A stretch of DNA of 64,000 nt. Origin: a virus. Positions 8,008-64,000 of this stretch are shown here, piece by piece (the first letter of the stretch is position 1; each line of letters begins with the position of its first letter). A model generated the notes under the pieces. That model did no database searches and was not told the origin of the DNA. It worked only from the letters and a program-made list of their open reading frames with translations. The stretch lies in IMG/VR virus record IMGVR_UViG_3300033074_002003, one strand, 5' to 3'. A program made the translations under genes and the position numbers.

Positions 8008-8268
8008 ATGGACACCACACTCACCGTTGCCATCGCCAAGTTCCCCTCGACCTTCGGCCTGCGCGCCTTCCCGGGCGACACGTTCCGCGTGAGCCCCTCG
8101 GCCTCGTACATGACCGACGCGTACCGCTGGGACCGTGAGACGAACACGACAGTGCGGGTCACCCCCGTCCCGATGCTCTACACCGAGCGCCTCTGCGAGG
8201 ACGGTGTGTGGCGCGACTTCGCGAAGGGGACCACCGAGGAGCTCCTCCAGAACGTCGTGAAGCTCTGA
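8008..8268 (+). CDS. Small early protein (86 aa)
   Basis: Cassette gtgtagagtctacttcATGgacacc. Confidence 0.55.
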   Translation: MDTTLTVAIAKFPSTFGLRAFPGDTFRVSPSASYMTDAYRWDRETNTTVRVTPVPMLYTERLCEDGVWRDFAKGTTEELLQNVVKL

Positions 8269-8291
8269 TCTCAGGGAGGTAGAGTCTCACT

Positions 8292-8579
8292 ATGGTCCAC
8301 ATCTTCTACCGTACCCTCGACGCCATCTCAGAGGCCCCTGTCGCCCTCACGGTGCCGACTGACGGGCTTCGAAAAGAAGACTACGAGCTTGTTCACGTGC
8401 TCGATAACTCGGCTCCGCACCTCGAGGCGATCTACCGGATGATGAACGTCATCTCGGGGAACGAGCTCCCTGTGCGGCTCGGCATCCGAACTATGACCGT
8501 GGGTGACGTCATTGTCGACGAGGACGGGACCGTGTGGTTTGCGGGCGCGTCTGACTGGGAAGAGACGAGCTGGTTCTGA
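8292..8579 (+). CDS. Small early protein (95 aa)
   Basis: Cassette gaggtagagtctcactATG. Followed by conserved terminator hairpin 8587-8625. Confidence 0.5.
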   Translation: MVHIFYRTLDAISEAPVALTVPTDGLRKEDYELVHVLDNSAPHLEAIYRMMNVISGNELPVRLGIRTMTVGDVIVDEDGTVWFAGASDWEETSWF

Positions 8580-8586
8580 CCTCGCC

Positions 8587-8625
8587 GTGACCCGCTCGGG
8601 CCCCCACGGGCCCGAGATGGGTTCC
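8587..8625 (+). terminator. Conserved GC hairpin gtgacccgCTCGGGCCCccacGGGCCCGAGatgggttcc (copy 1)
   Basis: 9-bp stem with 4-nt loop, 8 nt after the stop at 8579. 36/39 nt identical to the copy at 9588-9626. Confidence 0.55.
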
Positions 8626-8801
8626 CATACCACCCACACGTCCCGAGTGACCCCAGCCTCCCAGAAGGGATACAACTCACCTCATGGAACTCATCTACCT
8701 CGCGGTCGGTCTCGTCGTGGTCGCCCTCCCGGGCGCGGTCATCTCCCTCGCCGCCTTCGGCCTCGAGTGACAGTGTGGGCGGGAGAGGATAGGATCTGAA
8801 C

Positions 8802-8999
8802 ATGGTCAAGAGCAACGTCTCACGCCCCGTGAAGCGCTACATCGTGCGGTTCTTTCACCAGGACATGGGCGGGTGCGAGTGCCCGTTCGAGGCCGATGAA
8901 CATGACGATGCCCGCGAGCGCAGGGACGAGATCAACGCGGGACAGTACTCTCGCATGAGCGACGCTAGCATCGTGCGTGTCTACGCGAAGGGGAAGTGA
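8802..8999 (+). CDS. Small early protein (65 aa)
   Basis: Cassette ggataggatctgaacATG. Confidence 0.5.
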   Translation: MVKSNVSRPVKRYIVRFFHQDMGGCECPFEADEHDDARERRDEINAGQYSRMSDASIVRVYAKGK

Positions 9000-9011
9000 T
9001 AGAGTCTACCC

Positions 9012-9197
9012 ATGGAAGAAATCGCTAGCAAGCCGCACGAGCACGCCTGGGGTTACGACAAGTGGGAGACCCTCTGCCACAACGGCCGTCGCATCGTGCA
9101 CCAGTGTAACGACTGCCTCGCCGTACGGGTCACCTTTCGCACCCACAACGCGGGCGACAAGGTGGTCGTCATCGACCCGCCCTACGTGAAGGACTGA
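9012..9197 (+). CDS. Small early protein (61 aa), His/Cys-rich (possible Zn binding)
   Basis: Cassette gtgatagagtctacccATGgaagaa. Confidence 0.5.
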   Translation: MEEIASKPHEHAWGYDKWETLCHNGRRIVHQCNDCLAVRVTFRTHNAGDKVVVIDPPYVKD

Positions 9198-9220
9198 ACG
9201 CGAGGGTGTAGAGTCTGGTT

Positions 9221-9574
9221 ATGGACAACAACATCGCCATCGACTTCGCGCGCCTCACCCCCGCCCAGTCCGCGCTGCTCGCCCGCATCCGCGTGTCCCT
9301 CGCCACGAACTCCCTCGCGGTGGAGCGGGCCATCACGGTCCTCTACGCGAACCAGACCACCGACGAGCGGGCGGTCTCCGCGACCAAGCACCAGAACGCC
9401 AAGGGGTTCAACTCCGCCGACGCGAGTCGGCTCTCGTACTACGCCCGCTGGGTCGGGTCGGGTCGCCACCTCACGGGTCACCACCTCGACCGTGCGCGTG
9501 CCACGGTCGGCAAGTACTGGCGCCAGCTCCTGCGCGCGGCGGTTGCGAAGGCGCAGGTGGCACAGGGCGCCTGA
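9221..9574 (+). CDS. Small early protein (117 aa)
   Basis: Cassette ggtgtagagtctggttATGgacaacaac. Followed by hairpin copy 2. Confidence 0.55.
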   Translation: MDNNIAIDFARLTPAQSALLARIRVSLATNSLAVERAITVLYANQTTDERAVSATKHQNAKGFNSADASRLSYYARWVGSGRHLTGHHLDRARATVGKYWRQLLRAAVAKAQVAQGA

Positions 9575-9587
9575 CCCGGGCCTCGCG

Positions 9588-9626
9588 GTGACCCGCTCGG
9601 GCCCTCACGGGCCCGGGATGGGTTCC
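9588..9626 (+). terminator. Conserved GC hairpin gtgacccgCTCGGGCCCtcacGGGCCCGGGatgggttcc (copy 2)
   Basis: Same element as 8587-8625, 14 nt after the stop at 9574. Confidence 0.55.
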
Positions 9627-9707
9627 ACCACCTCGGCGGGCTCGACCTCTCTGCGAGGCACGAGCCGAGAACGTGAATCCCCGTGCGCGGGAGGATAGAG
9701 TACTCTC

Positions 9708-10439
9708 ATGCCGCTCATCACCCAGAAGCATGGTTTCGATGTCGCGACCCAGCGCTACACCCGGAAGGGTGACCCCATCACGGAGCACGAGGGCCGGGTG
9801 GTCGCCCGGTACGACCTGCACCTCACCCGCAACCACTCCGACACGCTGGACTACACCGACTTCCAGACCGCCCAGGTCGTGAAGATCGTCGTGAAGCTCG
9901 ACGCTCCCCTCGCGGATCCCTACCACTACTACTCCAACCCGCTCTACCGGAAGGGCGACCCCTTCGTGGAGATCGAGGTGTTCTCCTCCCAGTACACGTG
10001 GCGATGCCCGAGCGACTTCGTGAGTGCCACGGTGGACGCCTCCCCCGAGCTCATCGCGGAGCACGAGGCCTTCCTCGCCGGTCGGCGAGCGGAGATGGCC
10101 GCTGAGGCCGCTCGGGTGGCCCAGGAGAAGCTCGAGGCCGAGAAGAAGGAGGCTGCCAAGCGAGCGGTCGCGGAGGCCCGAGAGGCCGCTCGGAAGGCTC
10201 AGGCGGAGGCCGTCCTCGCTGGGATGCCCGAGAAGGGAACCCGCGTCACGGTGTGCGGGATGAAGTATCCCGAGCCTGTGGTCGGCACGGTGTTCTGGAA
10301 GGGAGTCACGAAGTACCGCGGGAAGTGGGCCGCGAAGATCGGCGTGAAGCGCAACCCGAAGGACCGGGACGAGGACCCGATGTGGGTGGGGGACGGCGAG
10401 TACACCGTGGAGCGGGTCGTGAAGTTGGGCGCCGCGTGA
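9708..10439 (+). CDS. Early protein (243 aa) with Ala/Glu/Lys-rich coiled-coil segment
   Basis: Cassette ggaggatagagtactctcATG. Largest gene of the array. Confidence 0.6.
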   Translation: MPLITQKHGFDVATQRYTRKGDPITEHEGRVVARYDLHLTRNHSDTLDYTDFQTAQVVKIVVKLDAPLADPYHYYSNPLYRKGDPFVEIEVFSSQYTWRCPSDFVSATVDASPELIAEHEAFLAGRRAEMAAEAARVAQEKLEAEKKEAAKRAVAEAREAARKAQAEAVLAGMPEKGTRVTVCGMKYPEPVVGTVFWKGVTKYRGKWAAKIGVKRNPKDRDEDPMWVGDGEYTVERVVKLGAA

Positions 10440-10453
10440 AATCTGTGCGGGTG

Positions 10454-10479
10454 GGTGGTAGAGTCTACCCATGGACAAC
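10454..10479 (+). promoter_or_regulatory. Extended -10 leaderless promoter (ggtggtagagtctacccATGgacaacaac)
   Basis: Same cassette; last copy of the early array. Confidence 0.6.
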
Positions 10480-36804: not shown

Positions 36805-36821
36805 CCTATTTAGCTCTCGTG
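36805..36821 (+). promoter_or_regulatory. Late-type leaderless promoter CCTATTTAGCTCTC-GTG
   Basis: Matches the late motif. Confidence 0.45.
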
Positions 36822-37715
36822 TCGGAAAAGTTGACGCTACGAGAGCTGCTGGGTACTGACAGCGCGAATCTGGTGACGGAGCGCGAGTTTCGCGACCAGA
36901 ATTTTTGCAGGTATGAGAGACTGGTGATCCGCTCTCTGCGTCGCGCGGGCATCATCGGAAACATTCGCAGTGCGAACTGCAACGACTCGAACGCCCCTGA
37001 CGCTGACATGGTGGTGGGCGACGAAATCTACTACGTGGAGGTGAAAGCCTCTGATCGCGCTCGAATGGGATCCGCGTCAGTCGGATATTCCTATCTCGAG
37101 CGCGAGTTCTATTCGACTGGTCTCAACGTCGAGCTGAGCGAACTCGTTGTGTCGCTACTTGAGACTTCGTCGTCGACGCTCAAGAAATCGCTAGATCGCC
37201 TCGTGCGAGCGGTCGCGGTCGGATCGCCTGACAGGAAGCGCGTCCTCAGGGGCTTTCCGATGAGCGGATTCACCGCATCAGCGTGGTCAGGCGCGCGCGA
37301 AGCGGGACTGTTGCAACCGCTTAACTCGCAGTTCGAGGGAAGCATAGACATCATCGGTTCGCACTACGCCCGCAAAGGCGTTTCATACATCCAGGTGGGC
37401 GGCCGCGGCCTGTTCTACCTCTCTTCGAACCCGGCGAACCTACCCGTTCCGAAACTAGAGGGTACAGTCGTCCTAGAGGTTACGGTGAGCAAAGCCGGCG
37501 ATATTCCGGGTCGCGAGACGTCTCGTGCGGCGATCCGCGTGCACCCGCGCATCGAAATTTCGGGAGAATCTCCCTACACGCTCGACGATCCCGCGAGCGT
37601 CATTGCGCTCATTGCCGCGACGGAAAATGTAAATCCGCCGCAGGGGGCTGTACAATCCCCCAATGGGATCTCGAATTCTCGCGCAGGGCGTCCTGGAGCA
37701 ACTGTCAGTTCGTGA
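36819..37715 (+). CDS. PD-(D/E)XK nuclease-fold protein (tentative)
   Basis: DADMVVGDEIYYVEVKA (D...E-V-K). Confidence 0.35.
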   Translation: MSEKLTLRELLGTDSANLVTEREFRDQNFCRYERLVIRSLRRAGIIGNIRSANCNDSNAPDADMVVGDEIYYVEVKASDRARMGSASVGYSYLEREFYSTGLNVELSELVVSLLETSSSTLKKSLDRLVRAVAVGSPDRKRVLRGFPMSGFTASAWSGAREAGLLQPLNSQFEGSIDIIGSHYARKGVSYIQVGGRGLFYLSSNPANLPVPKLEGTVVLEVTVSKAGDIPGRETSRAAIRVHPRIEISGESPYTLDDPASVIALIAATENVNPPQGAVQSPNGISNSRAGRPGATVSS

Positions 37716-38883
37716 GCTGGAGGAGAGGTGGGGCGTAAACATCAGCGTCTCTGGCTCGCGCCCACGTAAGTTCAGCATCAACTACGACCAGATCGAGAGC
37801 AAGCCGAGCCCGCTGGTGAACGAGTGCCGTGGAGTGGTCCTCCTCGCGAACAGGGAGTTGCCACGCCTCAAGTCAGAGCTCGCAGACGTGATCATCGGTG
37901 AGACGCAGTTGCTCGCTCGCCCGTTCGATCGCTTCTTCAATCACGGCGATCCGAACGCCGCGAACATCGACTGGGACGATCCTGGGCTCACTGTCGTCGA
38001 GAAGCTCGATGGCACTCTCGCGATCGTGTACTACGACGACCCTGCGAGCGAGTGGTGCATGGCGACGCGCTCTGTCCCAGACGCCGACCTCCCGTTCGAC
38101 GGTGGCAGCATGACGTTCAGGAAGCTGTTCGACCGAGCGCTCGTCGAGACGACCGGTAGCGACTCGCTTGGGTTCTTCATGGACACGACCGACCGCGACC
38201 TCACATTTTGCTTCGAGCTCACGACTCCCCTCAACAGGATCGTCGTAGAGTACAATACGTACGACCTCACTTGGATCGGGACGCGCCACCGCAAGACGGG
38301 TAAGGAGCTGACCTATCGCGATACCTTGAAGCGCGTTGCGCCCCACACCGCGCGGCACATGCCCCCGGCCGCGAAGACGTGGGCAGTTGGGTCGCTCGAG
38401 GAGATCACTGTCGCACTCGAGGCGTCTAGCCCAACAGAGCTCGAGGGCGTCGTTGTCGTCGACAGCGAGTTCCAAAGGCTGAAGATCAAGTCGCTTGCGT
38501 GGCTCTCGGCCAACAAGGCGAAGTCGTCGTGCTCGTCACCGCGCGCGATCCTGACACTGATCCTGCAGGAGAAGATCGACGACGTGCTTCCCCTGCTGCC
38601 GCCCGACATTTGCCTCACCGTTGACCGCATGAAGGCCTCACTCACCGAGCTGTATCACACCACCGACAGGCGGTACAGTGAGTTTCTAGCGGCCTCTGGG
38701 GGCAACAGAAAGGCCTTCGCACTGTCCGTGCAGGCTGACCCAAGCGTGTGGCCCGCGGCAATGTTTGGGCTGTACGTGAAGCCGCAGTCGATGCGCGAGT
38801 GGGTTGCCTCGCGCGGCGGCGAAGGCGGGTGGCCCGATTCGTTCCTCGACAACATCCTGAAGGCGATCGGTGAGAAGCAGTGA
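37663..38883 (+). CDS. ATP-dependent RNA ligase (Rnl-like nucleotidyltransferase)
   Basis: Motif I KLDGT, motif IV EGVVVVD, motif V LKIKS. The true start may lie downstream of 37663, because this frame overlaps the previous gene. Confidence 0.55.
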   Translation: MGSRILAQGVLEQLSVRELEERWGVNISVSGSRPRKFSINYDQIESKPSPLVNECRGVVLLANRELPRLKSELADVIIGETQLLARPFDRFFNHGDPNAANIDWDDPGLTVVEKLDGTLAIVYYDDPASEWCMATRSVPDADLPFDGGSMTFRKLFDRALVETTGSDSLGFFMDTTDRDLTFCFELTTPLNRIVVEYNTYDLTWIGTRHRKTGKELTYRDTLKRVAPHTARHMPPAAKTWAVGSLEEITVALEASSPTELEGVVVVDSEFQRLKIKSLAWLSANKAKSSCSSPRAILTLILQEKIDDVLPLLPPDICLTVDRMKASLTELYHTTDRRYSEFLAASGGNRKAFALSVQADPSVWPAAMFGLYVKPQSMREWVASRGGEGGWPDSFLDNILKAIGEKQ

Positions 38884-39281: not shown

Positions 39282-41897
39282 TTACATTCCGATGTTGAAT
39301 TTCTGCCCAAAGTATTTCATGACTTTGAACACTTGATCTGGACGCAGTGCTGGGCTGTAAATAGCTATCGCGGCTATAGAGCCTGACAGTCCAAACGTCG
39401 GCGATGTTACGGGTCGAGCGTTCCCTCGTGCGCCGATGTACATGGTGTCTGTACATACATTCGATGTGCCAGGGTCATTTGTCGTTCCGTCGTTCATTCT
39501 TTCGTCGACATTTCGGACAAAAAGTCGATGCGATGCGTGTGTACCGTTAAATTGGTGTACAAGCACGGTGGGATACGTCTGTTGGGCGCCCCACGATCCA
39601 CCGTAAGTGTTGTCTTTAGTGGATTGAACGCCAGCTCTTTTCACCAGTGCAGAACTTCCGATACCAGTGTACAGGTATGAAGCGCTGGTGAATGACAGCT
39701 GATTGGGGGTGTGCTCGTAAATGAATCCAGAGTTGTTTTTTGTAGACAGCACGAAGAACATTGAAAATGAAGACAGTGCCATAGGCAGGGACGATGTCAG
39801 TATTTGTGCTGCTTGAAATTCCACCGTGGGCAGGTTTCCCCAATCAAAATTCGCTGGCTGCCAAATTGGTTGAAGAGCTTTGGTTGCTATTCCGAGGTGA
39901 TTGCTACCCGTGCTTAGGTCGCGCCACTCGCGGACGCTGGGCGTTCCTGTGCCGTCTAGTGTGATGCTGCCTGTTTGCGCTTCATACCAGCCTACAAGCC
40001 CAGGAAAGTCAGCTGGTGAACCCGCGACGAACGATGAGCTGATTATGATCTGGCTCTGCGAGCCAGTTGTTATCGTGATTCCATTAGAAGCTGTTAGCAA
40101 CAACGTGCTGCTACTTCCTCCGCCACCATCATTCAGAACAACAGAAGAGCTGACGTGATACTTGTACAGCCCAGTTTGGTAGAGCGTCATGATCTCGTCT
40201 GCTGTCCTAGCACACGTTTCTATTCTTACGTCGTCAATAGACCCGGAGTAGTATTCACCGGACGCGGGATTGCCGCCAATGAGCCAGTCTCCGCTACCGT
40301 TTGTTACGGGTCCGCTAACTGCTACTGTTGCGGCAAATTCGCCATTGACATACCCTCTGAGCCTATCGCCGGTCCAAACAAGAGCTAGATGATTCCAGCG
40401 ATCATAGGCTATCTTGTAATCGACGAGCGTTGTTACCGTCGTTCCGTTGAGACGAAATTCGATCAAGCGATTGTCTGACAAGGCTTGGTACATCGAAAGT
40501 GGCGAAGCAAAGGGCGAAGTGTGTGTTCCTGTCGCGTGTTGTTTTGCTATGATGCTACGCCACGCATTTGTTCCGACAAATGCGGGCTTAATCCAGAGGT
40601 GAACAGTCAGTCTGCTTAGAGCTGCAAGGCTTCCCCAACGGGCCCCGCCCGCATATGACGATCCGTTGAATCCGATACCATTGTTGTACATGGCACCGCT
40701 AGTGAGATTTGTTACGCCGACATTCGTGCCTGTAAGGTGCCACGAACCCGTAGTGCCAGTATCAGCGAAACTAAGCCCACTCGTCTCGTCAAATTTCCAG
40801 TGAACCAGCGTTTGGCTTCCCGCCGCGGGATAAATGGGAGAAAATTTAGCAGCTGCAGAGCTTCCCCCGGTGGAACTGATGACAATTTGCCCGTTAGATT
40901 GTGATGTAATCGTAACGTTTGATCCCGCGACCAGATATGACACACCGGATGTCGTCTGTTGTAGCGAACCAGAGAGTCCATTTCCCGCATTGACGACGCC
41001 GCGAAATGTGGAGCCAGACAGGCTCGCGAAGATCGCGTCGTTCACACCGACCGTGACGCTGCTGTTTGCACCGCCGTCAGCGATATACGCTCCGACTCCC
41101 GCTGTTAGCGCTCTTTCGGCCGTTAGAGTGCCGTCGTTTCCGATTGTGACATAAGCAGATCCGATCGGTGCTCCGCTCCCACCTCCCGTACCGTTTGACG
41201 CGGACGTGATTCTACCTTTTGCATCTACAGCAAATCCAGCGTTTGTATACGTTCCGGCAACTACTGTCGTCGAGGAGAGCCCTAGCGTGACGCTGCTGTT
41301 TGCGCCACCGTCAGCGAGCGAGAGGTCAGAGCTTACTGCGAGGGCGCGTTCCTGTGTCAACGAACCGTTATTTGTGAGCGTAACGTACGTAGCATTTGTC
41401 GGAGCGCCGCCTCCACCGCCCGCGGTGTTTGACACGAAAATCACAGACCATTCAGTGCCGGTCCACATGAACCCAACACCCAAATAATCTAGTGTCAACT
41501 CATAAGATGTGGCACCGTCGATCGTTTTTGTTCCGGAAGGAATGACACGTGGGACGATCGTCGCCGCGGTACCCCCGACGTCTTTCACGACGTGGAGCTG
41601 CCCGATAGCAGGATCGCTGGGCAACATGACGTCGAACCTATTTCCGGACGAGTCATATCCTGACGCTGGCGCGACGCAGATCGTAACGTCGCTCTTCCGA
41701 ACTGCTACGGGCCCGCGCGTCTTCGAAACAGACTGCAGTGATAGGCCCGTTCGCAGCACGGTCGTCGCGTCTGGTCCGTCGGCGTTCGTTCCGACGTGAA
41801 GCGAGTTCGGGAAGATGATCCTCATGATCTTCCCGTCCTTCGATTCAACGAGGTACGGCGAAGTTTTGAGGTCCTGTATCGTGGGATTGATCTTCAC
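39282..41897 (-). CDS. Tail fibre protein with LamG/ConA-like domain and internal tandem repeats
   Basis: LTVHLWIKP...WNHLALVWTGDRLRGYVNGEF (LamG). Repeated ~70-aa Gly/Ser/Thr-rich segments. GTG start directly after the late motif. Confidence 0.65.
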   Translation of the reverse strand: MKINPTIQDLKTSPYLVESKDGKIMRIIFPNSLHVGTNADGPDATTVLRTGLSLQSVSKTRGPVAVRKSDVTICVAPASGYDSSGNRFDVMLPSDPAIGQLHVVKDVGGTAATIVPRVIPSGTKTIDGATSYELTLDYLGVGFMWTGTEWSVIFVSNTAGGGGGAPTNATYVTLTNNGSLTQERALAVSSDLSLADGGANSSVTLGLSSTTVVAGTYTNAGFAVDAKGRITSASNGTGGGSGAPIGSAYVTIGNDGTLTAERALTAGVGAYIADGGANSSVTVGVNDAIFASLSGSTFRGVVNAGNGLSGSLQQTTSGVSYLVAGSNVTITSQSNGQIVISSTGGSSAAAKFSPIYPAAGSQTLVHWKFDETSGLSFADTGTTGSWHLTGTNVGVTNLTSGAMYNNGIGFNGSSYAGGARWGSLAALSRLTVHLWIKPAFVGTNAWRSIIAKQHATGTHTSPFASPLSMYQALSDNRLIEFRLNGTTVTTLVDYKIAYDRWNHLALVWTGDRLRGYVNGEFAATVAVSGPVTNGSGDWLIGGNPASGEYYSGSIDDVRIETCARTADEIMTLYQTGLYKYHVSSSVVLNDGGGGSSSTLLLTASNGITITTGSQSQIIISSSFVAGSPADFPGLVGWYEAQTGSITLDGTGTPSVREWRDLSTGSNHLGIATKALQPIWQPANFDWGNLPTVEFQAAQILTSSLPMALSSFSMFFVLSTKNNSGFIYEHTPNQLSFTSASYLYTGIGSSALVKRAGVQSTKDNTYGGSWGAQQTYPTVLVHQFNGTHASHRLFVRNVDERMNDGTTNDPGTSNVCTDTMYIGARGNARPVTSPTFGLSGSIAAIAIYSPALRPDQVFKVMKYFGQKFNIGM

Positions 41898-41915: not shown

Positions 41916-44903
41916 TCAGCTCAATACGAATGGCGCGGCGAGCGACGTGCCGAGGCGGGCGTATAGAATCGGATTTCTGTTTGTTGACACTCCATCAACG
42001 AAAGGCAACGATGATGTCGCTTCCAGCGATAGGTTAGAACAGCTCGTTGATTCTGGATCTACTGACACTCCGTCGGTGCCGACGAATCTGGCAGACACGG
42101 GAGACGTCTGCCTGCCGATGATGCCGCCGAACGTACCGTCAGACTTGTACCCGACAGTATCGTAGAAAGAAGAATACGCGCGCTGCTCGAGCATATCACG
42201 CACGTGTCCAAATCGATCTCTTCTGAAAATGGCGCGTGAGTACTGCGGGACGCCGTTCAGAATACCGTATTTCCAGCCGCGAATTTCAACTCCGACAATA
42301 GCTGTCGCCGAACCACCGCCAGTGTATACAGTAGCAGACATTCTCTTTCTGAACCGCGGAAACGATGTACACCCGTAAGGAACATCGGGATAATCTGGAT
42401 CTGCAACGTGCGAATCATTCATCGTATTCTCGTCGCCGATACCAAAGAAAAATTTGTTGATGTCATTCTTGGATGCCGCAACGAGCTGCGTACCAGCGTA
42501 GACATTGCTATCACCAAACAGTGCGGGTGAACGGCCCGTCTCGAACAGTAGCGCGGCACCAATTGTTTCGGGACGAACTTCTACAATTGCAGCTGTCACC
42601 ATTTTGTTCGCGCCCTTGAAGCGTTTGACTTCTAGCTTCCTGTCGAGCGTAGAATATTGTGGAGCGAACGGGTATCCTTTGCTAAATTCATAGTCAGCAC
42701 GCAGTACACCTTTAGCGTCAACAGCAAGAGTGATTACGTCATCTCCGGGAATAGCAGCATTGGCAAACGAGTTCCAGCCCATCCACGCTCTGGCACCATC
42801 AGCGAGAGCAATTTCGTCAACGCCCGGAACCATCGAATCCCAGAACCTCTCGTTCGGTGACGAGGCTTGCGCAAATAGTTGCGTGCCCGCGACGATTTCA
42901 TACGGGTATTTGAGGCGGTCTGAGAGCATCTGCGAAGTTGCGATCGACGATGTGATGGATGATCTCGATCCAATCGCTCCGCGAGCACTTGAACCGTTGA
43001 CCAGCGCGGCGCTGCCCGTAACGTAGACATCTGTGTATGATCCACTGTATGTAGACCGCGCTTCAAGGTTCCACTGATCGACGACAGGTGATCCGACGAT
43101 TGTTGAGTAGTGAACTGCGTTGGATGTCACGTTCTGGTTCAGCGTATCGTGAAACTCTGCCTGCTCTCTCACCTGAGAGCCGAACAGTGTCATCTTGATC
43201 GTTCCTACTGGAATGGTAACGTCGTGCGACGCCGTGAGTGGGAACGAGTTGTAAGAAGCCGAAACTGTCTGCTCTTGCGGCGAAGAGTGATACTTTGACA
43301 CAACGAGGACGAGATTGTCTGTTGACGTCAAGAGATACGGCGAAATTACGTTTCCCTGAACGTTCTGAATCGCGAGATCGCTTAGACTTCCGGACGCTGT
43401 TCCGTATACATCGAGGCGCGCGCCCAACTCTTTGAGGCGTACAATTTTTGAGTTACCAGGAGATCCCACGTCACGACCAAATATCGATCTTCCTGAAACC
43501 TCACCTGACTTGCTTCTTCCGAAAGGAGAAACCGTGTAAACGTAACCCGCTGGTTCACTCTGAAATGGAGACAGTGGAGCTGTCGTCGTCGTATAAGACG
43601 CATAATCAGCGTACGTGCGGAAATAGGGCTTCATGTACACGAGGCCATTTGACACACGCGCTTCCATGTCAAATCTCAACGTACCAGCGAATTGGTGTGA
43701 GCTGCCTGAGGGAATTACTACAGTTGGTTTTGCGCCGAGAGCCGTAAATCCTTGAACTGAACGGTACTGCTTGTACCCGGGTGCTGGCGCGAATGGTGGT
43801 ACAGACGTCGAGCGAATGATTTCAGACGTATCATCTCCTTGCGGGATGATTGATGCTGACATGATTAGTTCTCGGCGCGTGGGCGAAATCTGATTGAACA
43901 GTGAAACCATGACACACGGTCCACCGAGACCCAAACAAGTTTCGTCATTCACACCGTGCGATTGCGCGACGCGTGTCCTATCATTGAACCAGTTACTGCC
44001 CGCCTGAAAAGGAAATTCAAGTGTCGCCCTTTCGAGAAGAAATGGCGTATCAGAAAAATCACCGACGTTAAATGACTGTGATGTCGACGCGGCGTATTTT
44101 GAATTTCGCGTGACGCCAGCATCATCATTTGATATTAGCGTTTCGACGCCCTCTTCCTGAAGTGCATTTGAGTAGAATGGCGCAAAACGAGCATATGATG
44201 CGAATGAGTATACGTCAGAGATGTATGACACCATCTTCCCGAACGCGCCCGAAGACGCGTAATTGCCGAGAGCGTCAAAAAACTTCACATCGAGGAATGG
44301 GTACGAAAATGCAAAACGTGATGGTGTCCCCTGAATGATCGGATTCGGATCTGTCTTCTCAGAGGGAGCGATTTCTTGGAACGTGCCTTCAACCTTGTTG
44401 TAGTAGTACGCGCTGGACGTAAGTGGATCTAGCGTCACGGCTGTCTTTACAGGAAGCTCAAATCGTATCTTTGTCTTCTCACCGAGCGGGGCTTTGAACC
44501 CAAGCCCTAGCTCACTGACGTTGCTGCCCGTTCGATACATGACACTCGACTTATCGAGGTCCTGTTCGTGCAGGCCCAATTCGATGAATGGTTTGTACGT
44601 GCTGAGTGTTCTAGTGACCGTGACGAAATTTTCTGCCACGCCTTGTGTGAATGAACCGACAGCAGAAATGCTACTCGTGAGGTCAGACGCGAGATTTCTG
44701 TTGTCTGTTGGCAGTGTTGTCGGGTACGAAACAGTTCTGCTTCGCGAGTAGATCAACGTGTCGTTGTCGTTGAACGGACCACCAGATGTACCGATGCGAG
44801 GATCGCCCGTCCTGCGTGTGTGTGGGTACCTCGACTCAGCGTTGTCGAGATTTCTCAGCGTTGTCCTGGGCAGAAGTCGTCTCATGTTAGAATTTGAACC
44901 CAC
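41916..44903 (-). CDS. Large virion structural protein (995 aa)
   Basis: Ser/Thr/Gly/Asn-rich beta protein in the late operon. No enzymatic motif seen. Confidence 0.5.
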   Translation of the reverse strand: MGSNSNMRRLLPRTTLRNLDNAESRYPHTRRTGDPRIGTSGGPFNDNDTLIYSRSRTVSYPTTLPTDNRNLASDLTSSISAVGSFTQGVAENFVTVTRTLSTYKPFIELGLHEQDLDKSSVMYRTGSNVSELGLGFKAPLGEKTKIRFELPVKTAVTLDPLTSSAYYYNKVEGTFQEIAPSEKTDPNPIIQGTPSRFAFSYPFLDVKFFDALGNYASSGAFGKMVSYISDVYSFASYARFAPFYSNALQEEGVETLISNDDAGVTRNSKYAASTSQSFNVGDFSDTPFLLERATLEFPFQAGSNWFNDRTRVAQSHGVNDETCLGLGGPCVMVSLFNQISPTRRELIMSASIIPQGDDTSEIIRSTSVPPFAPAPGYKQYRSVQGFTALGAKPTVVIPSGSSHQFAGTLRFDMEARVSNGLVYMKPYFRTYADYASYTTTTAPLSPFQSEPAGYVYTVSPFGRSKSGEVSGRSIFGRDVGSPGNSKIVRLKELGARLDVYGTASGSLSDLAIQNVQGNVISPYLLTSTDNLVLVVSKYHSSPQEQTVSASYNSFPLTASHDVTIPVGTIKMTLFGSQVREQAEFHDTLNQNVTSNAVHYSTIVGSPVVDQWNLEARSTYSGSYTDVYVTGSAALVNGSSARGAIGSRSSITSSIATSQMLSDRLKYPYEIVAGTQLFAQASSPNERFWDSMVPGVDEIALADGARAWMGWNSFANAAIPGDDVITLAVDAKGVLRADYEFSKGYPFAPQYSTLDRKLEVKRFKGANKMVTAAIVEVRPETIGAALLFETGRSPALFGDSNVYAGTQLVAASKNDINKFFFGIGDENTMNDSHVADPDYPDVPYGCTSFPRFRKRMSATVYTGGGSATAIVGVEIRGWKYGILNGVPQYSRAIFRRDRFGHVRDMLEQRAYSSFYDTVGYKSDGTFGGIIGRQTSPVSARFVGTDGVSVDPESTSCSNLSLEATSSLPFVDGVSTNRNPILYARLGTSLAAPFVLS

Positions 44904-45621
44904 CGAAAGCTAGCGAGTCTGTACCCTTTTGCGCTCCGTCGTAAGTAAACCCGACGCCCATCGATTTCGATCCGCTCAAGAGTCGAGTATTAGCATCAGT
45001 CCCACTCATCGCAAGTCGTGCTGATACGTGAAGTTGCGATGCACTAACTGGCAACACGAGCCCGATTTTATACGGAAATGCGTCGCTGTAAGGCGAAATC
45101 ACCGCAAATTTCGGAACACGACCGGTTCGATACGTTTCGCGCGTGATGAGCGCCCGGCTGTCGACAAATGGGCCCATTGTTCCCGTTCGTCCGGGCACGA
45201 ACTGGTCGGCAATGTCATCAACTTCGCCGAACTCATTTTCGTTGCCCGATTGAATCGCGCCTTTGATTCCCAGCACTTCTTTTGGGAAGAATTCGTTCGA
45301 TCCTGACGCAGAACCGAGAGGATGCAGCGCACCGTCGAAGTAACGTGCTACCCTATCACGGGTCATTCTCTCGAAGCACGCCCGGCCCTGACTTGTTTGT
45401 ATGAATTCGGACGACACGTAGCGCTGCTGTTCTTCAAATGGCGCGGGGTAATCAAACTGTCCAACTTGCCCGAACTCAACCTGTGGCAGTTTGTGATCGT
45501 CGTACCCAGACCAGATTTTTGCGACACCGGCCGCTACGTGCTCTGGTGCTGTTATTTCGACGCCCTGACGGTATCCGTCTACTTCACGTGTATCGATTGT
45601 GCCACTCGGGTGCGTTGCCAT
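44887..45621 (-). CDS. Structural protein (244 aa)
   Basis: Late operon. Confidence 0.5.
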   Translation of the reverse strand: MATHPSGTIDTREVDGYRQGVEITAPEHVAAGVAKIWSGYDDHKLPQVEFGQVGQFDYPAPFEEQQRYVSSEFIQTSQGRACFERMTRDRVARYFDGALHPLGSASGSNEFFPKEVLGIKGAIQSGNENEFGEVDDIADQFVPGRTGTMGPFVDSRALITRETYRTGRVPKFAVISPYSDAFPYKIGLVLPVSASQLHVSARLAMSGTDANTRLLSGSKSMGVGFTYDGAQKGTDSLAFGGFKF

Positions 45622-60880: not shown

Positions 60881-61756
60881 TCATGGACAGTGCTCACTAT
60901 TTTTGAAATCGCACCAGGTGCAGTTGTTCCTGTTCTTCAGGAAGACGTTTCGCTCCAAGGACGCTAGCATGTTTGAGACGATCTTGAGCGCCCGCGTGAG
61001 GGTGACCTCACCGACAGACACCTTCATGAGCTCGCACTTCTTCCCGGGCTTCGGGCGGCGCTTCAGGATGACGAAGCCGCACCTCACGTCACGCAGTGCC
61101 GGGACCTCCTCACCAGCAGTGCCAACTTGGTCCATCCAGAACTTCTTGTAGAGCGTCAGCTGCAGGCCCAGGAGCGGCTCGCGCTTCTTCATGGGTGTCC
61201 AACCCGACCCGCTCGTCTTCCAGTCGAGGATCCAGACCTTCTCCTTGCCCTTCGCGTCGGGAGCGGCAATGATACAGTCGATGAAGCCCTTGAACTTTGC
61301 GCCCTTCGCGTTGATCGCCTCGTAGAGCGCCCTCTCGGCGTCAATGAGCCGCCAACCTGGGAAGTTCTTCTCGAGGAACTCTGGGACGTCGGCAAGGATC
61401 TCTGTCGCCTGCAGCTTCAGCTTGTCGAGCGAGAAGTCTTTCTCTTTCGGCTCGGCCCTCGCGTACTCAGGACGCCAGAGCTTGTCTAGCTGCTCGTACG
61501 CAATCTCGGGCTTCATCTCGCGCGTCTTGAGGTAGTGCTCGAGCGCGGCGTGGACAGCAGTTCCGAACGCCAGGTGGTACGAAGGCCGAAATACGTTGAT
61601 CTTGTCAACGTGTTTCAGCTTGTGGCGAAACGAACAGTCGTTCCAGTCTTTCAGCTCAGAGAAGCTGATGTGAGGCTTGCCCGTGATGAGTGTGAACTTC
61701 GGCGTCTCTTCTTCGACGGGCGCATCTAGAACCGAACCAGTGACTTCTTCTGACAT
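60881..61756 (-). CDS. Cas4/RecB-family PD-(D/E)XK exonuclease with 4-Cys cluster
   Basis: GFIDCI...WILDWKTS...QLTLYK (D, DxK, QxxxY). Cys in DWNDCSF plus C-terminal CTWCDFKNSEHC. Confidence 0.55.
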   Translation of the reverse strand: MSEEVTGSVLDAPVEEETPKFTLITGKPHISFSELKDWNDCSFRHKLKHVDKINVFRPSYHLAFGTAVHAALEHYLKTREMKPEIAYEQLDKLWRPEYARAEPKEKDFSLDKLKLQATEILADVPEFLEKNFPGWRLIDAERALYEAINAKGAKFKGFIDCIIAAPDAKGKEKVWILDWKTSGSGWTPMKKREPLLGLQLTLYKKFWMDQVGTAGEEVPALRDVRCGFVILKRRPKPGKKCELMKVSVGEVTLTRALKIVSNMLASLERNVFLKNRNNCTWCDFKNSEHCP

Positions 61757-62036
61757 GCAGAAGAATATACTGCATCTTCTACACTTGATCAGTCTTCAGT
61801 CAAGTTCAACCATCGCGAGGTGGTGTCGAACCTCGGCGATTGCAAGCCTCACGACAGCGGGATGACCGTCGGTGTCCTTCTTCTTGCGAAGCGCTCCGTC
61901 GCCGCTCCGCGTGATCCACGCATCATGCTTCTCTTTGCCACTCTCGATGACCACGTAGTAGTCAGTCTGCCAAGGATAGTAGATGATGTCGCGAATCGTG
62001 ATCATGCGCCCCCGTATATGAATATAGAGAACGTTT

Positions 62037-62111
62037 GCGCCCGTGACGAGAATCGAACTCGCACATACCGGAACATAACCTCCGGAGTTCTTCCTTTGAA
62101 CTACACGGACT
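62037..62111 (-). tRNA. tRNA gene (anticodon uncertain; 8-nt anticodon loop GGUUAUGU in my fold; 3' end ...G-CA, CCA not fully encoded)
   Basis: The reverse complement folds with acceptor GTCCGTG/CACGGGC, D stem GTTC/GAAC, anticodon stem CCGGA/TCCGG, variable TATGT, T-arm GCGAG-TTCGATT-CTCGT. Confidence 0.5.
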
Positions 62112-62730
62112 TACTGTGCTTGTCTAGCTTCAAAGAGTGTTCTTGGTTGTAGAGCTCCTGGGTGATGAGATTCTTCAGAGTGTGCAGCTTCACGAGATTT
62201 GCGTCGTGTGTGAGTGTGACCATCTTGTCGAAGAGCGGGATGTATTTTGTGCGCGTCTCTGCGAGCTGCTTCTCACGGAAAGCAAAGTCAGTTCCCGCGA
62301 GCGAACGGAGGTTGTCCAACCTGTCGCACGCTTTGATGGCGAACGGACGCCAATCAACACAGTCGTGGAACCGATCGAGGTAACCGTCAGCGGGACATTT
62401 GCTCAGCACCTTGACGATGCGTGTGACCTCCGGTCCGAAACAGTGCTCGATCATGTCAGCTGAAATGTCTTCGGTATCTTCCAACGAGTCGTGGAGGAGC
62501 GCGGCGATGGCAAGCTCTGAAGAGTAACAGCGAGCTTCATCAAGCAGTGAGATGGCCACGCGCCGCAGGTGTTCGAAGTACCTGAGAGCGTGACCTTCGC
62601 TATCGACCTCTTTGCGCGTTTGTGCACGGTGTCCGAATTTGGCGAGCATGTACGCAAGCCGAATGTCTCGCACCTCAGAGGGCGTAAAGTGAATCTCGAT
62701 GCGCTTGAAGAAGCTCGCCTTGTTTTCCAC
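62101..62730 (-). CDS. HD-domain hydrolase, RelA/SpoT (Mesh1/SAH-like) (p)ppGpp or alarmone hydrolase
   Basis: HD pair in FGHRAQTRK...AALLHDSLEDT. Confidence 0.65.
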   Translation of the reverse strand: MENKASFFKRIEIHFTPSEVRDIRLAYMLAKFGHRAQTRKEVDSEGHALRYFEHLRRVAISLLDEARCYSSELAIAALLHDSLEDTEDISADMIEHCFGPEVTRIVKVLSKCPADGYLDRFHDCVDWRPFAIKACDRLDNLRSLAGTDFAFREKQLAETRTKYIPLFDKMVTLTHDANLVKLHTLKNLITQELYNQEHSLKLDKHSKSV

Positions 62731-63089
62731 TATCCCACCCTCACACCTGGTAGTGCATCGGCTGGGGGCGTGATCATAGCCAGACCGCGTGTGGGATCGA
62801 GAGGCCCTAGCGGGTTAGTATCGACGGCAAGAAGCATGCCGTGACTCTCGACTCCCATCATGTTCCGCGGAGCGAGGTTGACAACAGCCAGAACTTTCAC
62901 GCCGACCAATGATTCGGGAGTGTAAGCTGTGGCAATACCAGCCAAGATCGTTCTTATGCTGAGCTCTGGCCCGAGGTAGACAGAGAGCTTCAAGAGCTTC
63001 TTGCTCTTCGGCACTGTCTCGGCCGTGAGAATGATGCCCACGCGAATGTCGACCTTCTGAAACTCTTCGAATGTGATCTCTTCGGTCAT
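62730..63089 (-). CDS. tRNA-binding domain protein (CsaA/Trbp111/EMAP-like OB fold)
   Basis: FQKVDIRVGIILTAETVPKSKKLLKLSVYLG...LVGVKVLAVVNL. Confidence 0.65.
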   Translation of the reverse strand: MTEEITFEEFQKVDIRVGIILTAETVPKSKKLLKLSVYLGPELSIRTILAGIATAYTPESLVGVKVLAVVNLAPRNMMGVESHGMLLAVDTNPLGPLDPTRGLAMITPPADALPGVRVG

Positions 63090-63538
63090 GGCGATCCTTT
63101 CAGTGCGAGGGGCAGGTGTTCGCACAGCTTGCGCGTCCGTTCGCCAGGACCGAGCGCGATAGCCGTGATCTTCCCACCGACGTCCGGTTCTCGGAATGCC
63201 GACGCCGGAACGTCGGCATCGTGTGCTGAAACCAACAGACGCATCAGCTCGATCTCAGACGGAGCGGACAGCAGCGCGAGGTAGTTCGAGTTCGTGAACC
63301 ACACCGAATCAACGTCCGGGTGATCGTGCGTAAACTGACGCATCGCGTGGCACGACTGGACGGCCTGGTAGCCCGGCGCAAGGTCCGCTCGGGTCACCAG
63401 ATAAAGCTTGTCTCCCGGCTTCACAGTGTGACCTGTCGTTCCGACGTGGGAATTTCCTGCGGTCCCTGTGTGTTTCCCGTCCACTTTGACTTTGGACGAG
63501 GCGCCTGCTTTTCCGCTGCGGGCTCTGCTAGCAACCAT
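63086..63538 (-). CDS. Peptidyl-tRNA hydrolase, PTH2 (archaeal/eukaryotic type)
   Basis: KLYLVTRADLAPGYQAVQSCHA...ITAIALGPG aligns with the PTH2 core (KMVLVVRxDLxMGxGKxAAQCxHA...TVLxIGPG). Confidence 0.6.
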   Translation of the reverse strand: MVASRARSGKAGASSKVKVDGKHTGTAGNSHVGTTGHTVKPGDKLYLVTRADLAPGYQAVQSCHAMRQFTHDHPDVDSVWFTNSNYLALLSAPSEIELMRLLVSAHDADVPASAFREPDVGGKITAIALGPGERTRKLCEHLPLALKGSP

Positions 63539-63879
63539 TTCGTAATATCACTTTCGCTGATACGCTTGTAGGTGAACTGCTCGGCGAGCTTTGCGATCCT
63601 CCCGGCAAGGAACGCCGTTGCGTCACTCGTACCGAGCTCAGTGCGACTCTCGACGACGCGGAAACTGACACCGCGCAGGTACGCATACGCCAAGAAGTAC
63701 AGGCGAGCACGCTCGCCGAGGGACCTCTTGATCGTCCAGTGACCGAAACGCTCATCGCCCGATGAGGACTGAATGAGCTTCCTAGATTTGGCGCCCGCAC
63801 CTGCAAGGCCCCTGACGATTCCCTTCAAAACAATGTGATTGATTTTGTCCATAATATCCTCCGATTCACTCAATTGCAC
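63421..63879 (-). CDS. Hypothetical protein (152 aa)
   Basis: SD GGAGG 9 nt upstream. Confidence 0.4.
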   Translation of the reverse strand: MQLSESEDIMDKINHIVLKGIVRGLAGAGAKSRKLIQSSSGDERFGHWTIKRSLGERARLYFLAYAYLRGVSFRVVESRTELGTSDATAFLAGRIAKLAEQFTYKRISESDITKWLLAEPAAEKQAPRPKSKWTGNTQGPQEIPTSERQVTL

Positions 63880-64000
63880 GCAAACTGCAGTGACAACGAG
63901 CGGAGGTGGACCCCTTATTCGAGTGCGGTTACAAGCCGCTTCACATTATCGACATATTTCTATCCTAATCACCATTTTTGCGTTGTACAGGCATCGTATT

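What the first reader, a model, noticed from the sequence alone, without database searches (positions are those of the whole stretch)
62037..62111. tRNA with an apparent 8-nt anticodon loop and no encoded CCA, next to the phage CCA-adding enzyme
The - strand sequence folds into a clean cloverleaf (7-bp acceptor, 4-bp D stem, 5-bp anticodon stem, 5-nt variable loop, canonical T-arm GCGAG-TTCGATT-CTCGT). The only 5-bp anticodon stem I can form (CCGGA/TCCGG) leaves an 8-nt loop, GGUUAUGU. Eight-membered anticodon loops are the hallmark of natural +1 frameshift suppressor tRNAs. The alternatives are a 7-nt loop with a mismatched stem, reading UAU (Ile-AUA) or UUA (ochre suppressor). The gene ends ...G-CA, so it depends on CCA addition, and the phage carries its own CCA enzyme. 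Its 5' end also overlaps the last codons of the HD-hydrolase ORF.
Basis: seen in the sequence. Interest (0 to 1): 0.55.

Follow-up and report, generated by a model that had tools for sequence, protein, structure and literature searches.

The report
Phage tRNA with eight-base anticodon loop
A jumbo phage carries a well-formed tRNA gene whose anticodon loop has eight bases instead of seven; related phages keep such oversized loops at the same spot, so the oddity is selected, but nothing in this genome shows it is used to shift the reading frame.

Summary
The tRNA is real. It lies at window 62038-62110 on the minus strand (Rfam tRNA 46.7 bits; the cloverleaf is the minimum-energy fold). No standard pairing gives a 7-nt anticodon loop: the loop is GGUUAUGU. 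CCA is not encoded, and the 5' end overlaps the stop codon of the HD-hydrolase gene. The CCA-adding enzyme is 32.5 kb away, not adjacent.

The new result is context. The window comes from a ~306 kb jumbo phage. Relatives with the same PTH2 / tRNA-binding / HD gene order carry one or two tRNAs beside the HD gene. Of 32 distinct sequences, 27 have 8-nt loops, and 20 of 21 stem pairs covary. In 31 of them the loop core is U-UCA-A or U-CUA-A. This window alone has U-UAU-G.

The layout G|GU-UAU-GU matches the yeast mitochondrial tRNA-Thr loop UUUUAGGU, which reads triplets. It also matches the 5'-side insertion of the Salmonella frameshift suppressor SufJ.

My best reading (confidence about 0.4) is a zero-frame decoder of the rare AUA codon. 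There are 57 in-frame AUA codons and no split gene that needs a +1 shift. A frameshift, decoy or ochre-reading role is not excluded.

The relatives pose an unexplained puzzle: their loops are complementary to UGA, yet TGA ends 86% of their genes.

The parts
62038..62110 (-). tRNA gene: acceptor stem through discriminator G73, 73 nt. CCA is not encoded; the following bases are CAAAC.
   Evidence: ARAGORN; Rfam RF00005 46.7 bits; minimum-energy cloverleaf, z -3.1; family covariance model R1 63.9 bits.
62068..62085 (-). Anticodon arm: 5-bp stem CCGGA/UCCGG enclosing the 8-nt loop GGUUAUGU (62080-62073).
   Evidence: Sequence; cloverleaf parser; the Rfam alignment shows an 8-nt insert.
62075..62077 (-). 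Most likely anticodon UAU, preceded by U33 (62078) and followed by G37 (62074). The extra base is G at 62080, next to the stem.
   Evidence: Inference from three observations: 31 of 32 family members follow N-Y-U-NNN-A-N; the Ile-like tRNAs of the same phage clade share a U-NAU-G core; the yeast mitochondrial tRNA-Thr loop is UUUUAGGU (PMC3113583).
62101..62730 (-). HD_4 (SpoT/Mesh1-like) phosphohydrolase gene. Its last 10 nt, including the TAG stop, overlap the tRNA 5' end. It probably shares a transcript with the tRNA.
   Evidence: Pfam PF13328 9e-11; PHROG metal-dependent phosphohydrolase; 706 homologues, many on contigs of 100-460 kb.
62730..63125 (-). Gene for a tRNA-binding-domain protein (Trbp111/CsaA-like), part of the conserved cassette.
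   Evidence: Pfam PF01588 3e-22; syntenic in L002-L012 and L144.
63086..63538 (-). PTH2-type peptidyl-tRNA hydrolase gene, part of the conserved cassette. Some gene callers start it later, giving 112 aa.
   Evidence: Pfam PF01981 1.3e-6; conserved upstream of the HD gene in L013, L014, L072, L144, L147, L173 and L182.
28242..29543 (+). Phage CCA-adding enzyme (tRNA nucleotidyltransferase). It could finish the CCA-less tRNA, but it is 32.5 kb away.
   Evidence: Pfam PolyA_pol 7.7e-36 plus the RNA-binding and tRNA_NucTran2_2 domains; PHROG tRNA nucleotidyltransferase 7e-60.

Best explanation
This is a functional elongator-type tRNA gene of a jumbo phage. It is the positional orthologue of a conserved family of phage tRNAs with an enlarged anticodon loop. 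That family sits beside a PTH2 / tRNA-binding protein / HD-hydrolase cassette.

In this phage the loop reads G | G32 U33 U34 A35 U36 G37 U38. That is a normal U-turn, anticodon and purine-37 core presenting UAU, with one extra base on the 5' side next to the stem.

Proposed mechanism; every step is inferred and none is shown:
1. The tRNA is transcribed with the HD operon.
2. It is trimmed, and CCA is added by the phage or host CCA-adding enzyme.
3. It is aminoacylated by an unidentified synthetase.
4. It pairs with the rare AUA codon in the zero frame. The extra base stacks or pairs across the loop, as C31.5 does in SufJ.

The enlarged loop is a lineage trait rather than a device for programmed frameshifting in this genome. 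It may make the loop a poor substrate for host factors that recognise anticodon loops.
For: - The tRNA body is canonical: 21 of 21 stem pairs form, and U8, A14, G18G19, U54U55C56, A58 and a possible A15-U48 pair are present.
- The gene is unchanged in a strain with 3.8% flank divergence.
- The family is under selection: 33 tRNAs, 95.8% of cells paired, 20 of 21 pairs with compensatory changes, 0 of 500 shuffles as good.
- 27 of 32 distinct members have 8-nt loops, all built N-Y-U-NNN-A-N. The extra base is therefore 5' of a canonical core.
- Ile-like tRNAs elsewhere in the clade share U-NAU-G (GAU, AAU) in loops of 7-10 nt. The window's U-UAU-G fits that series.
- A more distant relative has a canonical tRNA-Ile(UAU).
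- AUA is rare but used: 57 of 17,592 codons, including 10 in the 871-aa gene at 39282-41897.
- The same phage also encodes a canonical tRNA-Arg(UCU) and a tRNA(CAU) just outside the window. This looks like a set of tRNAs for rare codons.
- Precedent: an identical loop layout reads triplets in yeast mitochondria (PMC3113583).
Against: - G73, G37 and U38 do not match the bacterial tRNA-Ile identity set of A73, t6A37 and A38 (my own knowledge of E. coli IleRS determinants), so the amino acid is unknown.
- If the phage tRNA(CAU) is a lysidine-type tRNA-Ile2, AUA is already covered.
- The 31 relatives present stop-complementary triplets, not sense anticodons. The family's ancestral role may therefore not be ordinary decoding.
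- The G.U closure could give a 6-nt loop.
- There are no expression, charging or decoding data.
- The host is unknown, so codon supplementation cannot be tested.
Confidence: 0.4

Rival explanations
1. It is a natural SufJ-like +1 frameshifting tRNA. It decodes AUA in the A site, and the distorted anticodon arm then lets the mRNA slip by +1. Equivalently, the four bases UUAU read AUAA or AUAG. The result would be a low level of trans-frame product from specific phage or host genes.
For: - The extra base occupies the 31.5 position of SufJ (PMC4238358).
- The 8-nt loop is conserved over large divergence.
- A peptidyl-tRNA hydrolase gene is always nearby. That would help if such tRNAs drop off the ribosome.
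- One AUAA at 29846-29849 would join an 86-aa ORF to the next ORF.
Against: - That downstream gene (Sir2-like) has its own GGAGG ribosome-binding site and ATG at 29872.
- 57 in-frame AUA codons lie in real genes, 37 of them followed by A or G.
- No frame-switched orthologue pairs were found in about 3000 aligned residues per syntenic relative.
- The yeast mitochondrial tRNA-Thr shows that this layout can be frame-faithful (PMC3113583).
Confidence: 0.13
2. It is a tRNA-shaped RNA that does not decode. It would act as a decoy, inhibitor or ligand: for example for a host anticodon nuclease or another tRNA-targeting defence, or for the neighbouring tRNA-binding, PTH2 or HD proteins.
For: - The phage invests heavily in tRNA protection and repair: CCA enzyme, T4 Rnl1-like ligase, PTH2, tRNA_bind and HD_4.
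- Relatives carry opal-complementary loops although TGA ends 86% of their genes. That is hard to reconcile with efficient decoding.
- Related phages have a tRNA-like gene whose anticodon arm is a long helix capped by a GAAA tetraloop, so it has no anticodon (L097 1152-1225).
- Phage tRNAs with altered loops have been proposed to escape anticodon nucleases (PMC10264068).
Against: - The loop core keeps U33 and a purine at 37, which suggests ribosomal decoding.
- The acceptor and T arms are fully canonical, as needed for EF-Tu and the ribosome.
- The other two tRNAs of the same phage have ordinary 7-nt loops, so there is no genome-wide pressure on loops.
Confidence: 0.2
3. It reads the ochre codon. 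Either the anticodon is UUA in a 7-nt loop GGUUAUG (A31 paired with the last loop U, U39 bulged), or the four bases GUUA read UAA-C. It would then be the third member of an opal / amber / ochre series at this locus.
For: - All 31 orthologues are complementary to UGA or UAG.
- Bulges in the 3' strand of the anticodon stem are common in the family.
- The 244-aa gene 44887-45621 ends UAA-C-AUG, and that AUG (44885) is in frame with the 995-aa gene. A UAAC quadruplet reading would fuse the two.
Against: - This register needs G33 and U37, which violates the two most conserved loop positions. Every relative keeps U33 and A37.
- TAA is used as a genuine stop 11 times.
- Three junctions with a 1-nt gap exist in the window, so one matching UAAC is near chance expectation.
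- There are no in-frame TAA codons in aligned genes.
Confidence: 0.08
4. It is a decaying copy. The lineage lost the family's UCA or CUA function, and the loop has drifted.
For: The window is the only family member that departs from the UUCAA / UCUAA core, at 4 conserved loop columns. It also has the second-lowest model score in the family.
Against: - Every stem pair is intact and all tertiary-interaction bases are kept.
- The sequence is identical across strains whose flanks differ by 3.8-9%.
- The drifted loop still shows U33 and a purine at 37.
Confidence: 0.1

Closest known systems
Salmonella frameshift suppressor tRNA SufJ (tRNA-Thr with a C31.5 insertion)
   Same: It has an 8-nt anticodon loop with the extra base on the 5' side next to the stem, and an otherwise normal 33-37 core (PMC4238358).
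   Different: SufJ is a laboratory-selected mutant of a known tRNA-Thr and has a proven +1 activity at ACC-N. Here no 7-nt parent is known, the trait is conserved in nature, and no +1 target was found.
Yeast mitochondrial tRNA-Thr1 (UAG), loop UUUUAGGU
   Same: It is a natural, conserved 8-nt loop with the same layout N-NU-NNN-GU, including G37 and U38. It decodes triplets despite in-frame codons followed by a complementary fourth base (PMC3113583). The same argument applies here to AUAA and AUAG.
   Different: It is mitochondrial, derived from tRNA-His, tied to a codon reassignment and served by a dedicated ThrRS. None of this is known here.
AUA-reading tRNA-Ile(UAU) of some bacteria and phages
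   Same: The anticodon is UAU. A canonical version exists in a distant relative (L182 3098-3170, loop CUUAUAA).
   Different: The window tRNA has G73, G37, U38 and an 8-nt loop instead of A73, A37, A38 and 7 nt.
Phage suppressor tRNAs used for stop-codon recoding (codes 4 and 15)
   Same: The orthologues in related phages present UCA or CUA. Some CUA members have canonical 7-nt loops.
   Different: There are no in-frame stops in the window or in relatives. TGA is the preferred stop of the phages that carry UCA. Recoded phages, by contrast, deplete the cognate stop (bioRxiv 10.1101/2021.08.26.457843). The window's loop is not stop-complementary in the canonical register.
Phage tRNAs with anticodon-loop substitutions proposed to evade host anticodon nucleases
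   Same: They are phage-encoded with a non-host-like anticodon loop, in a genome rich in tRNA repair genes (PMC10264068).
   Different: The published cases are base substitutions in 7-nt loops of sense tRNAs. Here the loop size changes, and the other tRNAs of the phage are canonical.

Membership tests
tRNA (Rfam RF00005) | Cloverleaf scoring above the curated threshold, with conserved D-loop and T-loop bases | tested here: met
   46.7 bits against a gathering score of 29; ARAGORN call; G18G19 and U54U55C56 present.
tRNA (Rfam RF00005) | 7-nt anticodon loop | tested here: not met
   8-nt loop. The alternatives are a 6-nt loop closed by G.U, or a 7-nt loop with a bulged U39.
+1 frameshift suppressor tRNAs (sufD, SufJ, SufA6, SufB2 class) | Anticodon loop enlarged to 8 nt by one inserted base | tested here: met
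   Loop GGUUAUGU; the extra base is on the 5' side as in SufJ (PMC4238358).
+1 frameshift suppressor tRNAs (sufD, SufJ, SufA6, SufB2 class) | Genes whose expression requires a +1 shift at the cognate codon | tested here: not met
   The only AUAA fusion candidate has an independent ribosome-binding site and ATG. There are no frame-split orthologues. Only 73 kb of about 306 kb was examined.
+1 frameshift suppressor tRNAs (sufD, SufJ, SufA6, SufB2 class) | Measured +1 decoding activity | not testable with these tools
   Needs reporter or cell-free translation assays.
Triplet-decoding 8-nt-loop tRNAs (yeast mitochondrial tRNA-Thr1 type) | Loop layout N-NU-NNN-RN, together with many in-frame cognate codons (some followed by a complementary fourth base) in essential genes | tested here: met
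   G-GU-UAU-GU compared with U-UU-UAG-GU (PMC3113583); 57 in-frame AUA codons, 14 AUAA and 23 AUAG.
tRNA-Ile (AUA-reading, UAU anticodon) | UAU anticodon flanked by U33 and a purine at 37 | tested here: met
   U-UAU-G at 62078-62074, in the register shared by the family.
tRNA-Ile (AUA-reading, UAU anticodon) | Bacterial IleRS identity set: A73, A37 (t6A), A38 | tested here: not met
   G73, G37 and U38. The identity set is cited from my own knowledge of E. coli tRNA-Ile.
Phage suppressor tRNA for stop-codon recoding | Anticodon complementary to a stop codon in the canonical register | tested here: not met
   UUA is available only with G33 and U37.
Phage suppressor tRNA for stop-codon recoding | In-frame stop codons in phage genes, or depletion of the cognate stop | tested here: not met
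   Coding density is 83-93% in the standard code, and all three stops are used (TGA 57, TAG 13, TAA 11). No in-frame stops were seen in aligned orthologues.
HD-adjacent expanded-loop tRNA family of jumbo phages (defined here) | Position within about 0.6 kb of the HD_4 gene in the PTH2 / (tRNA_bind) / HD / PD-(D/E)XK gene order; class I tRNA with an 8-nt loop | tested here: met
   Synteny; model R1 63.9 bits; the G73 + CAA trailer is shared with L147, L152, L158, L169b and L179b.
HD-adjacent expanded-loop tRNA family of jumbo phages (defined here) | Loop core U-UCA-A or U-CUA-A | tested here: not met
   The window has U-UAU-G and is the only one of 32 distinct members to differ.

The most novel reading that the evidence does not exclude
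The HD-adjacent tRNAs could be a natural, virus-encoded family of SufJ-like tRNAs that act at specific codons to move ribosomes into the +1 frame or to bypass termination. Relatives would act at UGA-N or UAG-N; this phage would act at AUA-A/G or UAA-C. Possibly they work together with the adjacent PTH2 and tRNA-binding proteins. That would make them the first conserved natural quadruplet or frameshift decoders outside organelles and laboratory suppressors.
Probability: 0.12. Interest if true: 0.9.

Novelty: new variant of a known kind. Interest (0 to 1): 0.62.

Why it matters
Eight-base anticodon loops are known mainly from laboratory frameshift suppressors, from engineered quadruplet decoders and from one yeast mitochondrial tRNA.

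Here the oversized loop is a conserved, covarying trait of a tRNA family across many uncultured jumbo phages. The family is always beside genes for peptidyl-tRNA hydrolysis, tRNA binding and an HD hydrolase. I found no description of such a family in the searchable literature.

If these tRNAs decode normally, they show that natural ribosomes tolerate enlarged loops far more widely than assumed, and that standard tRNA finders miss or mislabel them. If they shift frames or interfere with termination, they would be a new viral way to manipulate translation and a natural source of parts for quadruplet-codon engineering.

The window's own copy is the odd member (UAU instead of UCA or CUA). That makes it a useful contrast for experiments.

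Tried and rejected
- Close relatives. Megablast of 61000-64000 against 50,697 phage records found nothing. The exact anticodon arm is absent from IMG/VR. A single-protein scan with the HD protein found nothing.
- The best GenBank phage hit for the HD protein is huge phage LR745208 at 50% identity. It has no tRNA at that locus.
- blastn of the tRNA against phage records gave only generic T-arm matches. Searches against E. coli genomes gave nothing useful, so no parent isoacceptor could be assigned.
- The 18-nt anticodon arm has 17 exact hits in 596 Gb of bacterial genomes. About 17 are expected by chance, and none is a tRNA.
- Stop-codon recoding is rejected for the window and for syntenic relatives.
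- Programmed +1 at AUAA (29846-29849) is rejected because of the downstream ribosome-binding site and ATG.
- Frame-split orthologues: none.
- Back-up stop codons after TGA in phages that carry UCA: no signal.
- Reading the family core as UUC (Glu) or UCU (Arg) with the extra base on the 3' side was considered. I judged it less likely because it needs C33 in about a third of members and A32 in most.
- A scan with a structural protein to fetch late genes of relatives failed. It was replaced by re-fetching the HD loci with 10 kb flanks.

Full report
**1. The observation**

The minus strand of 62038-62110 reads:

GUCCGUG UA GUUC AAAGGAA GAAC U CCGGA GGUUAUGU UCCGG UAUGU GCGAG UUCGAUU CUCGU CACGGGC G

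It is followed by CAAAC.

- ARAGORN finds this as the only tRNA in the 64 kb window and labels it 'tRNA-???' with a two-base 'anticodon' (ta).
- Rfam's tRNA model scores it 46.7 bits (threshold 29, E 8e-7). It has to insert eight bases where the seven-base loop belongs.
- The cloverleaf is the minimum-energy fold: -27.2 kcal/mol, z -3.1.
- An exhaustive cloverleaf parser finds the 5-bp stem with 8-nt loop to be the best solution. The only 7-nt alternative pairs A31 with the last loop U and bulges U39. That gives GGUUAUG with G33 and U37.
- ARAGORN's label arises because the first and last loop bases (G, U) can wobble-pair, which leaves six bases.
- CCA is not encoded.
- The HD_4 gene (62101-62730) ends with TAG at 62103-62101, inside the tRNA.
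- The CCA-adding enzyme is real, but it lies at 28242-29543 on the other strand, 32.5 kb away.

The direct neighbours are:
- the HD_4 phosphohydrolase gene;
- a tRNA-binding-domain protein gene (62730-63125);
- a PTH2 peptidyl-tRNA hydrolase gene (63086-63538).

The tRNA sequence is identical in ten independent assemblies from several samples. It is also identical in a strain whose surrounding 1.56 kb differs at 58 positions. The extra base is therefore not an artefact.

**2. Where the window comes from**

The HD protein is encoded on a 305,889-bp metagenomic contig and on a 151 kb contig.

The window carries:
- baseplate gp25-like and large fibre-like genes;
- a T4 Rnl1-like RNA ligase;
- glycosyltransferases.

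It is a jumbo myovirus-like phage with no close relative in GenBank phages or IMG/VR.

Under the standard code, 81 predicted genes cover 83% of the window. All three stop codons terminate genes: TGA 57, TAG 13, TAA 11. There is no stop-codon reassignment.

**3. The key result: a family**

The HD protein has 706 homologues at about 50-60% identity, many on contigs of 100-460 kb. I fetched 129 loci from IMG/VR and JGI metagenomes (soil, rhizosphere, freshwater sediment, groundwater), plus three from Logan assemblies.

The relatives that share the window's gene order run PTH2, sometimes tRNA_bind, HD, PD-(D/E)XK nuclease, two glycosyltransferases, then baseplate genes. Every one of them has one or two tRNAs beside the HD gene. 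A covariance model built from these tRNAs finds no others in the loci it was run on.

The 33 tRNAs (32 distinct) form a well-supported cloverleaf:
- 95.8% of cells are paired;
- 20 of 21 pairs show compensatory changes;
- 0 of 500 shuffles reach the observed scores;
- slid controls collapse.

Loop sizes by my parser:

| Loop size | Distinct tRNAs | Note |
|---|---|---|
| 8 nt | 27 | |
| 7 nt | 4 | closed by an A.C, C.A or A.A mismatch |
| 6 nt | 1 | |

Twelve tRNAs in one more distant relative (L160) all parse as canonical 7-nt loops. The two other tRNAs of the window's own phage also have canonical 7-nt loops in the ARAGORN calls and RNAfold folds. The method is therefore not biased toward large loops.

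Loop columns are N-Y-U-[UCA or CUA]-A-N in 31 of 32 sequences. That is one extra base next to the stem, followed by a textbook Y32-U33-anticodon-A37-N38 loop. The first and last loop bases are never Watson-Crick complementary in the relatives (A.C, A.G, A.A, C.U, U.C, C.C).

The alternative register is UUC or UCU with the extra base on the 3' side. It would need C33 in about a third of members and A32 in most, so I consider it less likely. It is not excluded.

**4. The window's copy within the family**

It shares these features with the family:
- the position, immediately 3' of the HD gene;
- the G73 discriminator;
- the G-CAA trailer, as in L147, L152, L158, L169b and L179b.

Its loop, however, is G-G-U-U-A-U-G-U. 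In the family register this is an extra G, then G32, U33, UAU, G37, U38.

Two further observations support UAU.
- Other members of the broader clade carry Ile-like tRNAs with the core U-NAU-G in loops of 7 to 10 nt. Examples are UUGAUGG, GUAAUGA, GGUGAUGAA and AUGAUGGA. GGUGAUGAA closely resembles GGUUAUGU.
- The only well-studied natural 8-nt loop, in yeast mitochondrial tRNA-Thr1, is UUUUAGGU. It has the same three-bases / anticodon / GU layout, and it reads CUN triplets (PMC3113583).

**5. Is it a frameshift suppressor?**

The extra base sits where C31.5 sits in SufJ. SufJ decodes ACC in the zero frame in the A site and then promotes a +1 shift (PMC4238358). The idea is therefore structurally reasonable. 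The genome does not ask for it, however.
- AUA occurs in frame 57 times in predicted genes (3.2 per 1000). Ten are in one 871-aa fibre-like gene, 14 are followed by A and 23 by G. Obligate quadruplet reading would wreck these genes. The authors of the yeast mitochondrial tRNA-Thr study used the same argument.
- I listed the +1 continuation of every in-frame AUA. One, AUAA at 29846-29849, runs on into the next gene. That gene (Sir2-like) has a GGAGG site and an ATG at 29872 of its own.
- No window protein aligns to relatives as two frame-shifted pieces.
- A TAA-C-ATG junction at 44889-44883 would be bridged by a GUUA:UAAC quadruplet reading. With three such 1-nt-gap junctions in the window, this is about what chance gives. 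That register also needs G33 and U37.

**6. What it most likely does**

The body is canonical in every position that EF-Tu, the ribosome and the processing enzymes need. I therefore favour a decoding tRNA.

The same phage encodes a canonical tRNA-Arg(UCU) and a tRNA(CAU) a few kb beyond the window start. Together with a UAU tRNA, this looks like the usual phage set for rare AGA/AGG and AUA codons.

The amino acid cannot be named. G73, G37 and U38 do not fit the E. coli tRNA-Ile identity set (my own knowledge).

The reason for the enlarged loop is open. One idea that fits the context is escape from host factors that recognise anticodon loops (PMC10264068). The phage has a CCA enzyme, an Rnl1-like ligase, PTH2, a tRNA-binding protein and an HD_4 hydrolase. 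But its other two tRNAs have normal loops, so the pressure, if any, is specific to this family.

**7. An unexplained family-level puzzle**

- Phages whose HD-adjacent tRNAs present UCA use TGA for 183 of 214 predicted stops (86%), even at 43-53% GC. The figure is 35 of 63 in phages with CUA (the same trend appears in orthologous genes).
- There is no in-frame TGA in about 3000 aligned residues per locus.
- There is no enrichment of back-up stops.

This is the opposite of what is described for recoded phages, which deplete the cognate stop (bioRxiv 10.1101/2021.08.26.457843).

These tRNAs could be very weak suppressors, SufJ-like shifters at UGA-N, or decoys. They could also take part in some termination-related process with the adjacent PTH2; that last idea is pure speculation. 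Related phages also have a tRNA-like gene with a GAAA-capped helix in place of the anticodon arm. At least some tRNA-shaped genes in this clade therefore cannot decode.

**8. Novelty**

Four full-text searches found nothing on natural phage tRNAs with enlarged anticodon loops. They found only laboratory suppressors, engineered quadruplet decoders, organellar cases and a chloroplast survey of ARAGORN calls.

I rate the finding a new variant of a known kind. The window's tRNA alone is a curiosity. Its membership in a conserved family is what makes it worth experiments.

**9. Limits**

- Only 73 kb of the roughly 306 kb genome was visible.
- The host is unknown.
- The sequences in the family are phylogenetically related, so counts are not independent events.
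- All mechanistic steps are inferred.

Noticed in passing
window 30690-33281 (+): An 863-aa protein matches the eukaryotic major vault protein domains (MVP_shoulder 3e-27, Vault_3 1.8e-9, Band_7). A vault-like shell protein in a jumbo phage is unusual.
   Followed up: no
window 29872-30620 (+); L002 3908-8279: A Sir2-like NAD-dependent deacetylase lies just after the CCA-adding enzyme. NAMPT and an NMN-adenylyltransferase/NUDIX gene lie just beyond the window end. Together they look like an NAD+ salvage and consumption module, possibly a counter to NAD-depleting defences.
   Followed up: no
window 37663-38883 (+), with 36819-37715 upstream: A T4 Rnl1-like RNA ligase is present (Pfam RNA_lig_T4_1 1e-12; PHROG 'RNA ligase and tail fiber attachment catalyst' 1e-41). 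The 298-aa ORF upstream has no clear kinase/phosphatase match. This may be part of a tRNA repair pathway.
   Followed up: partly
window 1300-10470, + strand intergenic spacers: The motif GGTAGAGTCT (one mismatch allowed) occurs 18 times in the window, against 5.6 expected; 0 of 100 shuffles reach 18. Seventeen of the 18 lie in the first 10.5 kb, mostly a few bases upstream of the start codons of an array of 60-160-aa ORFs. It may be a phage-specific promoter or translation signal.
   Followed up: partly
L212 2190-2264; L213 854-928 (same phage, about 3-5 kb beyond window position 1): The phage also encodes a canonical tRNA-Arg(UCU) and a tRNA(CAU), which could be Met or a lysidine-type Ile2. 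Both have 7-nt loops and neither encodes CCA.
   Followed up: partly
L097 / L100 / L102, about 1050-1440; L080 / L094, about 300-1400: Related jumbo phages carry clusters of aberrant tRNAs. One is a tRNA-like gene with a GAAA tetraloop-capped helix instead of an anticodon arm. One is an Arg(UCU) orthologue with a 6-nt loop UUCUAA. Others are Ile-like tRNAs (GAU, AAU) with G37 in loops of 7-10 nt.
   Followed up: partly
L144, L145, L149, L151-L153, L158, L169, L179, L181, L014: Phages whose HD-adjacent tRNAs present UCA end 86% of their genes with TGA, even at 43-53% GC. This is the opposite of the stop-codon depletion seen in recoded phages.
   Followed up: partly
window 62101-63538 (-): The HD_4 (SpoT/Mesh1-like small hydrolase), tRNA_bind and PTH2 genes form a conserved cassette. 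From my own knowledge, such enzymes can reverse toxin damage to tRNA: pyrophosphorylated CCA ends and N-acetylated aminoacyl-tRNA. The cassette may therefore be an anti-defence module. This was not tested.
   Followed up: no
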